A stretch of 64,000 bases of DNA, from NCBI RefSeq assembly GCF_009914755.1, contig NC_060933.1; one strand, 5' to 3'. Source of the DNA: the human T2T-CHM13v2.0 reference genome, Homo sapiens. Position 1 is the stretch's first letter. Each line of letters opens with the position of its first letter. Shown one piece after another: positions 39,123 to 41,163 of this stretch. A model generated the notes under the pieces. That model saw only the letters and a list, made by a program, of their open reading frames with translations, was not told where the DNA came from and searched no databases. Position numbers and translations under genes: made by a program.

Positions 39123-41022
39123 TTTTTTTTTTTTTTTTTTTTTTTTTAAATTTATTTTTTTATTGATAATTCTTGGGTGTTTCTCACAGAGGGGGATTTG
39201 GCAGGGTCATGGGACAATAGTGGAGGGAAGGTCAGCAGATAAACAAGTGAACAAAGGTCTCTGGTTTTCCTAGGCAGAGGACCCTGCGGCCTTCCGCAGT
39301 GTTTGTGTCCCTGGGTACTTGAGATTAGGGAGTGGTGATGACTCTTAAGGAGCATGCTGCCTTCAAGCATCTGTTTAACAAAGCACATCTTGCACCGCCC
39401 TTAATCCATTTAACCCTGAGTGGACACAGCACATGTTTCAGAGAGCACTGGGTTGGGGGTAAGGTCACAGATCAACAGGATCCCAAGGCAGAAGACTTTT
39501 TCTTAGTGCAGAACAAAATGAAAAGTCTCCCATGTCTACTTCTTTCTACACAGACACGGCAACCATCCGATTTCTCAATCTTTTCCCCACCTTTCCCGCC
39601 TTTCTATTCCACAAAGCCGCCATTGTCATCCTGGCCCGTTCTCAATGAGCTGTTGGGCACACCTCCCAGACGGGGTGGTGGCCGGGCAGAGGGGCTCCTC
39701 ACTTCCCAGTAGGGGCGGCCGGGCAGAGGCGCCCCTCACCTCCCGGACGGGGCGGCTGGCCGGGCAGGGGGGCTGACCCCCCCCACCTCCCTCCCGGACG
39801 GGGCGGCTGGCCGGGCGGGGGGCTGACCCCCCCACCTCCCTCCCGGATGGGGCGGCTGGCCGGGTGGGGTGCCGACCCCCCCACCTCCCTCCCGGACGGG
39901 GCGGCTGGCCAGGCGGGGGGCCGACCCCCCCACCTCCCTCCCGGACGGGGCGGCTGGCCGGGCGGGGGGCCGACCCCCCCACCTCCCTCCCGGATGGGGC
40001 GGCTGGCCGGGCAGAGGGGCTCCTCACTTCCCAGTAGGGGCGGCCGGGCAGAGGCGCCCCTCACCTCCCGGACGGGGCGGCTGGCCGGGCGGGGGGCTGA
40101 CCCCCCCACCTCCCTCCCGGACGGGGTGGCTGGCCGGGCTGAGGGGCTCCTCACTTCCCAGTAGGGGCGGCCGGGCAGAGGCGCCCCTCACCTCCCGGAC
40201 GGGGCGGCTGGCCGGGTGGGGGGGCTGACCCCCCCATCTCCCTCCCGGATGGCATGGCTGGCCGGGCGGGGGGGCTGACCCCCCACCTCCCTCCCGGATG
40301 GGGTGGCTGCCGGGCGGAGACGCTCCTCACTTCCCAGATGGGGTGGCTGCCGGGCGGAGAGGCTCCTCACTTCTCAGACGGGGCGGTTGCCAGGCAGAGG
40401 GTCTCCTCACTTCTCAGATGGGGCGGCCGGGCAGAGACGCTCCTCACCTCCCAGACGGGGTCTCGGCCGGGCAGAGGCGCTCCTCACGTCCCAGAGGGGG
40501 CGGCGGGGCAGAGGCGCTCCCCACATCTCAGACGATGGGCGGCCGGGCAGAGACGCTCCTCACTTCCTAGATGGGATGGCGGCCGGGAAGAGGCGCTCCT
40601 CACTTCCTAGATGGGATGGCGGCCGGGCGGAGACGCTCCTCACTTTCCAGACTGGGCAGCCAGGCAGAGGGGCTCCTCACATCCCAGACGATGGGCGGCC
40701 AGGCAGAGACACTCCTCACTTCCCAGACGGGGTGGCGGCCGGGCAGAGGCTGCAATCTCGGCACTTTGGGAGGCCAAGGCAGGCGGCTGGGAGGTGTAGG
40801 TTGTAGCGAGCCGAGATCACGCCACTGCACTCCAGCCTGGGCACCATTGAGCACTGAGTGAACGAGACTCCGTCTGCAATCCCGGCACCTCGGGAGGCCA
40901 AGGCTGGCGGATCACTCGCGGTTAGGGGCTGGAGACCGCCCGGCCAACACAGCGAAACCCCGTCTCCACCAAAACCAGTCAGGCGTGGCGGCGCGTGCCT
41001 GCAATCGCAGGCACTCGGCAGG

Positions 41023-41150
41023 CTTCCCTGAACCCGCGAGCTGGAAGCCGAGACCAGCTGGTCGCTGCCGGGCCCGCTAGTAGCCCACGGAGAAGCCGCC
41101 CACAGCCGGACACCAGAGCCTTGAGGGCCGCCATCTTCAAAAACCTACCC
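41023..41150 (-). pseudogene. MRPS18A: Retrotransposed copy of MRPS18A exon 1 (short 5'UTR plus 112 coding nt) fused to the SVA
   Basis: ATG at 41134 gives [37 protein letters not shown], which I recognise as the MRPS18A N-terminus. It ends GAAG| after 112 nt and joins CCTGCCGAGTGCC of the SVA Alu-like domain. Confidence 0.9.
41127..41138 (-). promoter_or_regulatory. TISU / YY1 motif GAAGATGGCGGC carried in the MRPS18A fragment
   Basis: Exact match to the TISU consensus SAASATGGCGGC and to the YY1 core AAGATGGCGGC. Confidence 0.75.
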
Positions 41151-41163
41151 TCGTAATTTTTTC

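What the first reader, a model, noticed from the sequence alone, without database searches (positions are those of the whole stretch)
40979..41163. SVA_F that has captured exon 1 of MRPS18A by splicing: a possible exon-trapping SVA lineage analogous to MAST2-SVA_F1
Seen: the SVA lacks the CCCTCT hexamer and the first part of its Alu-like domain. Its 5' end (minus strand) instead reads GGGTAGGTTTTTGAAG-ATG-GCGGCCCTCAAGGCT...GGGTTCAGGGAAG|CCTGCCGAGTGCCTGCGATTGCAGG, all inside one TSD pair. The 112 nt from the ATG (41134-41023) encode [37 protein letters not shown]+G. Established: this is the N-terminus of mitoribosomal MRPS18A (chr6). The SVA resumes exactly after the AG of the consensus TTCTCCTGCCTCAG acceptor, and SVA_F1 arose the same way from MAST2 exon 1. 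From memory, MRPS18A exon 1 ends at c.112, so the junction is an exact exon donor-to-SVA acceptor splice. Inference: a sense-oriented source SVA_F inside or downstream of MRPS18A was transcribed from the MRPS18A housekeeping promoter, spliced and retrotransposed here. I am not aware of this chimera being described, but cannot check.
Basis: partly seen in the sequence, partly recalled or inferred. Interest (0 to 1): 0.95.

Follow-up and report, generated by a model that had tools for sequence, protein, structure and literature searches.

The report
Known SVA carrying MRPS18A exon 1
This is a real, young SVA jumping element inside the B4GALT1 gene that picked up the first exon of the MRPS18A gene by RNA splicing before it inserted, but both the insertion and this origin have already been published.

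Summary
On the minus strand, window 41151-41023 (129 nt) is 129 of 129 identical to MRPS18A exon 1 plus a few upstream bases on chr6. The chr6 copy continues with GTGAGT, so the match ends at the exon donor. The SVA resumes at 41022, right after the CCTCAG of a canonical SVA Alu-like region (28 of 29 other SVA loci). An 11-nt target-site duplication and a poly(A) tail enclose the whole element.

It is not new. Kirby et al. 2025 (PMC12593883) list this insertion as SVA_Chr9_273. They give the same sequence, the same B4GALT1 intron and the same splicing model. It is also the 1000 Genomes SVA-401, a B4GALT1 expression QTL.

No lineage is supported. T2T-CHM13 holds one copy. No canonical SVA lies in the 127 kb I scanned around MRPS18A.

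One correction to print: the acceptor is not the SVA_F1/MAST2 acceptor. It lies 236 nt further 5'. A chr7 SVA with chr10-derived exons uses the same upstream acceptor.

The parts
41164..41174 (-). 5' copy of the target-site duplication (AAGGATATTGA)
   Evidence: Identical 11 nt at 39122-39112. The A-rich bases upstream make the true length ambiguous; Kirby et al. give 17 nt.
41152..41163 (-). 12-nt filler between the duplication and the MRPS18A segment; origin unknown
   Evidence: It lies outside the chr6 match, which starts at query position 25 = window 41151. It has no second copy in the window at up to 1 mismatch. It is part of the inserted sequence as listed by Kirby et al..
41023..41151 (-). 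MRPS18A exon 1 with a few bases upstream of its annotated start (17 nt before the ATG plus 112 coding nt)
   Evidence: 129 of 129 identical to G000:C6:43516402-43516530. Peptide 37 of 37 identical to human mL66/MRPS18A. The parent continues with GTGAGT. GC 66%, 10 CpG.
40787..41022 (-). Alu-like region kept here but absent from SVA_F1: from the acceptor used by the MRPS18A splice to the acceptor used by SVA_F1
   Evidence: 41022 is the first base after the consensus CCTCAG (28 of 29 loci). The SVA_F1 post-junction sequence starts at 40786.
39665..40786 (-). Last ~40 nt of the Alu-like region followed by the VNTR (inner boundaries approximate, read by eye)
   Evidence: Tandem GC-rich units are visible. 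This stretch aligns at 92% to the SVA_F1 on chr6 (L058) together with the SINE-R.
39148..39664 (-). SINE-R domain with AATAAA signals (5' boundary approximate)
   Evidence: All 40 scored genome matches to 39125-39670 are 98-100% identical, out of 2013 first-look candidates.
39123..39147 (-). Poly(A) tail
   Evidence: Uninterrupted run of 27 A at 39147-39121; the last two belong to the duplication.
39112..39122 (-). 3' copy of the target-site duplication

Best explanation
This is a polymorphic SVA_F retrotransposon insertion in intron 2 of B4GALT1, in the same orientation as that gene. Its hexamer repeat and the first part of its Alu-like domain are replaced by exon 1 of the chr6 gene MRPS18A.

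Likely history:
1. An SVA_F once lay in sense orientation downstream of MRPS18A exon 1, most simply in intron 1.
2. A transcript started at the MRPS18A promoter.
3. The exon-1 donor was spliced to a cryptic AG acceptor in the antisense-Alu part of the SVA (after ...TTCTCCTGCCTCAG).
4. The polyadenylated chimeric RNA was reverse-transcribed and inserted on chr9 by the LINE-1 machinery.

Shown here: the exact donor-to-acceptor junction, the target-site duplication and the poly(A) tail. Inferred: the source SVA, which was not found, and the involvement of L1. This is the same element already published as SVA_Chr9_273 and SVA-401.
For: - MRPS18A segment 129 of 129 identical to chr6; peptide 37 of 37.
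- The parent continues with GTGAGT right after the last matched base. The chr3 processed pseudogene has the exon 1/2 junction at the same base.
- The SVA resumes right after CCTCAG in 28 of 29 comparison loci.
- An 11-nt duplication and a 25-27 nt poly(A) tail enclose everything.
- Precedent in the same genome: on chr7 (L038) two chr10-derived exons are joined at this same acceptor. Unspliced precursor forms on chr2 and chr13 still carry the donor GTGAGC/GCGAGC followed by the full SVA 5' end.
- Kirby et al. 2025 list the same insertion at GRCh38 chr9:33130550 in B4GALT1. The displayed first ~400 nt look identical by eye, the length is 2054, and they propose the same model (passages and supplement rows).
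Against: - No canonical SVA lies in T2T-CHM13 chr6:43,408,001-43,535,000, i.e. 108 kb downstream and 18 kb upstream of exon 1. The only SVA there is an SVA_F1 at 43.41 Mb, which lacks the acceptor region and so cannot be the source.
- Kirby et al. report no SVA at the locus in GRCh38.
- No other SVA in this genome has an identical SINE-R; the best is 99%. No progenitor can be named.
- The 12-nt filler at the 5' end is unexplained.
Confidence: 0.85

Rival explanations
1. Trans-splicing: the MRPS18A exon-1 donor was joined to the acceptor of an SVA RNA transcribed from another locus. No SVA ever sat in MRPS18A.
For: It gives the same exact donor/acceptor junction. No source SVA is at the locus in CHM13 or, per Kirby et al., in GRCh38.
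Against: Intergenic trans-splicing is rare in human cells (general knowledge). The chr10-derived group shows the ordinary cis route, with precursor copies preserved. Kirby et al. state that sources may be lost or rare in the population (section 10).
Confidence: 0.07
2. Template switching during reverse transcription: L1 reverse transcriptase copied an SVA RNA, then jumped to an MRPS18A mRNA and ran to its 5' end.
For: It needs no source SVA at MRPS18A. Extra bases at the 5' end (the 12-nt filler) show that the 5' junction was not clean.
Against: A jump would have to leave the SVA exactly after an AG and land exactly on the last base of exon 1 of a six-exon mRNA. No exon 2 sequence is present. 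A second element uses the same SVA position with a different exon donor.
Confidence: 0.04
3. Assembly or alignment artefact: the chimera is not a real allele.
For: None found.
Against: The same insertion appears in independent data: HGSVC assemblies, 1000 Genomes short reads as SVA-401 at chr9:33130564, a 2023 cohort at chr9:33,130,559 and a 2026 pangenome preprint.
Confidence: 0.01

Closest known systems
SVA_Chr9_273 of Kirby et al. 2025 (Mob DNA 16:42, PMC12593883), which is 1000 Genomes SVA-401 (Wang, Norris and Jordan 2017, PMC5539088)
   Same: It is the same insertion. The position matches (GRCh38 chr9:33130550 / 33130564, B4GALT1 intron). The displayed first ~400 nt look the same by eye. 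The 141-nt 5' segment has 129 nt mapping to MRPS18A. The splicing model is the same.
   Different: Nothing structural. [quoted passage not shown] In the sequences it is 236 nt further 5'.
SVA_F1 (MAST2 exon 1 - SVA_F chimera)
   Same: A first exon with a canonical GT donor (chr1:45681270 followed by GTAGGG) is spliced into the Alu-like region of an SVA_F and then retrotransposed.
   Different: [quoted passage not shown] The MRPS18A element keeps about 280 nt of it (Damert 2018 and Hancks and Kazazian 2016 passages).
- SVA_F1 has at least 72 exact junction copies in CHM13; the MRPS18A form has 1.
- The MAST2 part is richer in CpG (77% GC, 35 CpG in 239 nt) than the MRPS18A part (66% GC, 10 CpG in 129 nt).
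Spliced chr10-derived 5' transduction on chr7 (L038, G000:C7:78759609)
   Same: An exon donor is joined at exactly the same SVA acceptor (after CCTCAG), with loss of the hexamer and the first part of the Alu-like region.
   Different: It carries two exons from chr10:44.3 Mb. Unspliced sibling copies exist on chr2 and chr13, so its history can be traced. The MRPS18A element has no known siblings.
Chimpanzee pt_SVA_D6 (STK40 exon 1 - SVA_D)
   Same: A first exon of a gene replaces the SVA 5' end, apparently by splicing (Damert 2018, passages).
   Different: Different species, gene and SVA subfamily. It has 94 copies, and its acceptor could not be reconstructed.

Membership tests
L1-mobilised SVA insertion | Target-site duplication flanking the whole insert | tested here: met
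   11 nt identical at 41174-41164 and 39122-39112.
L1-mobilised SVA insertion | Poly(A) tail after a SINE-R end with AATAAA | tested here: met
   Run of 27 A at 39147-39121, preceded by AATAAA motifs.
L1-mobilised SVA insertion | Alu-like, VNTR and SINE-R domains in order | tested here: met
   The Alu-like stretch is 98-100% identical to all 40 scored copies, as is the SINE-R. VNTR units are visible.
SVA_F subfamily | Subfamily-diagnostic sequence states | tested here: inconclusive
   No classifier was run. The Alu-like region lacks the T-rich insertion seen in 5 of 5 rows labelled E and matches 2 of 2 other rows labelled F that show this region. Kirby et al. label it F.
Spliced (exon-trapping) 5'-transduction SVA | Non-SVA 5' segment ends exactly at an exon donor of the parent gene | tested here: met
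   The chr6 match ends at C6:43516402 and GTGAGT follows. The processed pseudogene has its exon junction at the same base.
Spliced (exon-trapping) 5'-transduction SVA | SVA part starts right after an AG of the canonical element | tested here: met
   28 of 29 comparison loci read ...CCTGCCTCAG before the same 26 nt. The 29th is another spliced form.
Spliced (exon-trapping) 5'-transduction SVA | Sense-oriented source SVA downstream of the donor in the parent gene | tested here: not met
   No canonical SVA in CHM13 chr6:43,408,001-43,535,000. Only one haplotype was examined; the source may be polymorphic or lost.
SVA_F1 | MAST2 exon 1 at the 5' end | tested here: not met
   The 5' segment is MRPS18A.
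SVA_F1 | [quoted passage not shown] | tested here: not met
   The SVA_F1 junction maps to window 40787|40786; the MRPS18A junction is at 41023|41022, 236 nt apart.
Expanding SVA lineage (subfamily or transduction group) | Two or more copies sharing the chimeric junction | tested here: not met
   The 176-nt junction query finds 3 places in CHM13: itself, the gene and a pseudogene. Kirby et al. found no additional copy in T2T.

The most novel reading that the evidence does not exclude
No SVA ever resided in MRPS18A, and the chimera arose by trans-splicing of the MRPS18A exon-1 donor onto an SVA RNA made elsewhere. That would make SVA's upstream Alu-like acceptor a trap for exons of unlinked genes. 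The absence of a source in CHM13 and GRCh38 leaves this open.

A more modest reading is nearly certain: SVA has at least two separately used exon-trapping acceptors, and the printed 'same site as SVA_F1' needs correcting.
Probability: 0.07. Interest if true: 0.45.

Novelty: already known. Interest (0 to 1): 0.12.

Why it matters
It is an ordinary, already catalogued case of exon capture by an SVA. Its interest lies elsewhere: the insertion is a common allele linked in print to lower B4GALT1 expression, IgG glycosylation and urate/gout signals.

The one new point is small. The splice acceptor used here is not the SVA_F1 acceptor. It is an upstream one that a second, unrelated element also uses, so this element keeps most of the Alu-like domain that SVA_F1 lost.

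Tried and rejected
- **Source SVA at MRPS18A.** I scanned 127 kb of CHM13 chr6 with the element's VNTR and SINE-R. The only hit was an SVA_F1 at 43.41 Mb, rejected as source because it lacks the acceptor region.
- **Sibling copies.** None in CHM13.
- **The chr3 match at 87%.** This could have been an older sibling. It is a processed pseudogene with all six exon blocks contiguous.
- **Nearest relative by SINE-R.** No identical copy; many at 98-99% (40 of 2013 candidates scored). No progenitor can be named.
- **Origin of the 12-nt filler.** No second copy in the window. An ACGAG shared with the chr6 sequence 7 nt further upstream may be chance.
- **Coding potential.** Standard-code translation from the MRPS18A ATG stops after 51 codons inside the Alu-like region. 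I read nothing into it.
- **Papers not held.** Hancks 2009 and Damert 2009 are not held. I could not check whether they list the upstream acceptor, the chr10 group or MRPS18A.

Full report
**What is there**

All coordinates are on the minus strand. The window holds a complete retrotransposon insertion between two copies of AAGGATATTGA, at 41174-41164 and 39122-39112. From 5' to 3' it contains:
- 12 nt of unknown origin (41163-41152);
- 129 nt of non-SVA sequence (41151-41023);
- an SVA body starting at 41022, made of the remainder of the Alu-like region, a VNTR and a SINE-R;
- an uninterrupted run of 27 A (39147-39121).

**The 129 nt are MRPS18A exon 1**

- A search of the window's own assembly with 41175-41000 found 3 places: the element itself, G000:C6:43516402-43516530 at 100% over query 25-153, and G000:C3:48284603-48284731 at 87%.
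- A script confirmed 129 of 129 identical bases to chr6.
- The 37 residues encoded from the ATG at 41134 are 37 of 37 identical to the N-terminus of human mL66/MRPS18A in solved mitoribosome structures (3j7y_r, E 6e-19).
- On chr6 the base after the match begins GTGAGT, a canonical donor.
- The chr3 match is a processed pseudogene. Six blocks, contiguous in L003, align to six separate chr6 blocks, and the exon 1 block ends at the same chr6 base. This independently fixes the end of exon 1.

**The SVA side of the junction**

I fetched 29 other SVA loci that match the 143 nt after the junction at 98-99% (40 of 2548 first-look candidates were scored). In 28 of the 29, the 26 nt that start at window 41022 are preceded by ...GATTCTCCTGCCTCAG. 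So the MRPS18A exon is joined to the first base after an AG with a pyrimidine-rich run before it. An exon donor joined to an AG acceptor, with no exon 2 sequence present, is the signature of splicing. The duplication and poly(A) tail are the signature of LINE-1-mediated insertion. L1 involvement follows from established knowledge and was not tested here.

**Already in print**

- A full-text search for MRPS18A plus SVA returned 13 papers, one of them relevant. That paper is Kirby et al., Mob DNA 2025 (PMC12593883).
- I read passages of its section 9, all of section 10, supplement rows and the legend of Fig. S8.
- Its SVA_Chr9_273 is at GRCh38 chr9:33130550 in a B4GALT1 intron. It is labelled F and is 2054 nt long. 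The displayed first ~400 nt look identical to the window by eye.
- Its 141-nt 5' segment maps to chr6:43687668-43687796 (129 nt).
- The authors propose a polymorphic SVA_F in MRPS18A intron 1, splicing from exon 1, and retrotransposition to chr9. They note no SVA at the locus in GRCh38 and no further MRPS18A-SVA copy in T2T.
- The insertion itself was known earlier as 1000 Genomes SVA-401 (chr9:33130564). It is a cis-eQTL lowering B4GALT1 expression in B cells (P 4.47e-20) and is linked to an IgG glycosylation signal (Wang et al. 2017, PMC5539088: abstract, table and passages).
- It appears again in a 2023 cohort.
- A 2026 preprint describes it as hypermethylated and colocalising with urate and gout signals (passages only; its supplements are closed).

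**What I added**

1. **No source in this genome.** I fetched chr6:43,408,001-43,535,000 of CHM13 and aligned the element's VNTR plus SINE-R to it. The only hits fall in one locus, an SVA_F1 at about 43.41 Mb on the same strand as MRPS18A. Everything else is Alu or poly(A) similarity. An SVA_F1 lacks the part of the Alu-like region that this element retains, so it cannot be the source.
2. **No progenitor by similarity.** No other copy has an identical SINE-R (40 of 2013 candidates scored, best 99%).
3. **The acceptor is not the SVA_F1 acceptor.**
   - Rows labelled F1 in Kirby's own table show the MAST2 part joined to a sequence from the end of the Alu-like region.
   - I found 72 exact copies of that junction in CHM13, against 0 for the reversed control.
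   - I located the MAST2 exon 1 parent at C1:45681032-45681270, followed by GTAGGG.
   - I mapped the SVA_F1 post-junction sequence to window 40786.
   - The two acceptors are 236 nt apart.
[quoted passage not shown] I saw the legends of Figs S2 and S8 only, not the figures. None of the passages I read in the papers listed makes this point, but those searches were not aimed at it.
4. **The upstream acceptor has been used more than once.**
   - The odd locus (L038, chr7:78759609) joins non-SVA sequence at the same base.
   - That sequence is an exon from chr10:44318062-44318199, whose genomic copy is followed by GTGAGG, plus a further 30 nt.
   - Copies on chr2 and chr13 carry the same sequence followed by GCGAGCGC (chr2) or GTGAGCGC (chr13) and a full SVA 5' end.
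   - So there the precursor (read-through) and the product (spliced) forms both survive.

**Rivals**

- Trans-splicing would give the same junction without a resident source. It cannot be excluded while no source is known, but it is rare.
- Template switching would need two exact coincidences, and the second element at the same acceptor argues against it.
- An artefact is excluded by four independent data sets.

**Limits**

- Only one haplotype of the MRPS18A locus was examined.
- Repeat searches of the genome score only the best 40 candidates.
- Subfamily F rests on the paper's label and one visible indel state.
- Hancks 2009 and Damert 2009 were not held.
- GRCh38 itself was not available, so the empty allele is taken from the papers.

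**Verdict**

The feature is real, the reading is correct and the mechanism is right. There is no lineage, and it is already published. It does not need further follow-up, apart from the minor correction about the acceptor.

Noticed in passing
L038 1281-1520 (G000:C7:78759389-78759628); L024 1150-1530 (chr2); L043 1460-1760 (chr13); L041 1501-1638 (chr10): A small SVA group carries two spliced exons from chr10:44.3 Mb. The chr2 and chr13 copies keep 8 nt of intron followed by the full SVA 5' end. The chr7 copy is spliced from the second exon's donor to the same CCTCAG acceptor as the MRPS18A element.
   Followed up: partly
L003 715-1635 (G000:C3, about 48.284 Mb): Processed pseudogene of MRPS18A. 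Six exon blocks are contiguous at 87-96% identity to the chr6 exons. Its exon-1 block reaches 6 nt further upstream than the SVA-borne copy.
   Followed up: yes
L058 661-2231 (G000:C6, about 43.41 Mb, minus strand): An SVA_F1 lies 106 kb downstream of MRPS18A exon 1 on the same strand. It is the only SVA in the 127 kb scanned and cannot be the source of the window's element.
   Followed up: yes
window 41152-41163 (-): 12 nt of filler lie between the target-site duplication and the MRPS18A segment. The last bases, together with the start of the MRPS18A part, read ACGAG. The same pentamer lies 7 nt further upstream on chr6, which may be chance.
   Followed up: partly
window 40981-41134 (-): The MRPS18A ATG opens a frame of 51 codons that runs into the Alu-like region and stops. 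It is in the sense orientation of the B4GALT1 intron.
   Followed up: no
G000 genome-wide: The exact 25-nt MAST2/SVA junction of SVA_F1 occurs 72 times in T2T-CHM13 (38 forward, 34 reverse; 0 for the reversed control).
   Followed up: no
PMC12593883, section 9 and Fig. S8 legend: The paper says the MRPS18A splice used the same site as SVA_F1. Its own table rows and the genome show two acceptors 236 nt apart.
   Followed up: yes
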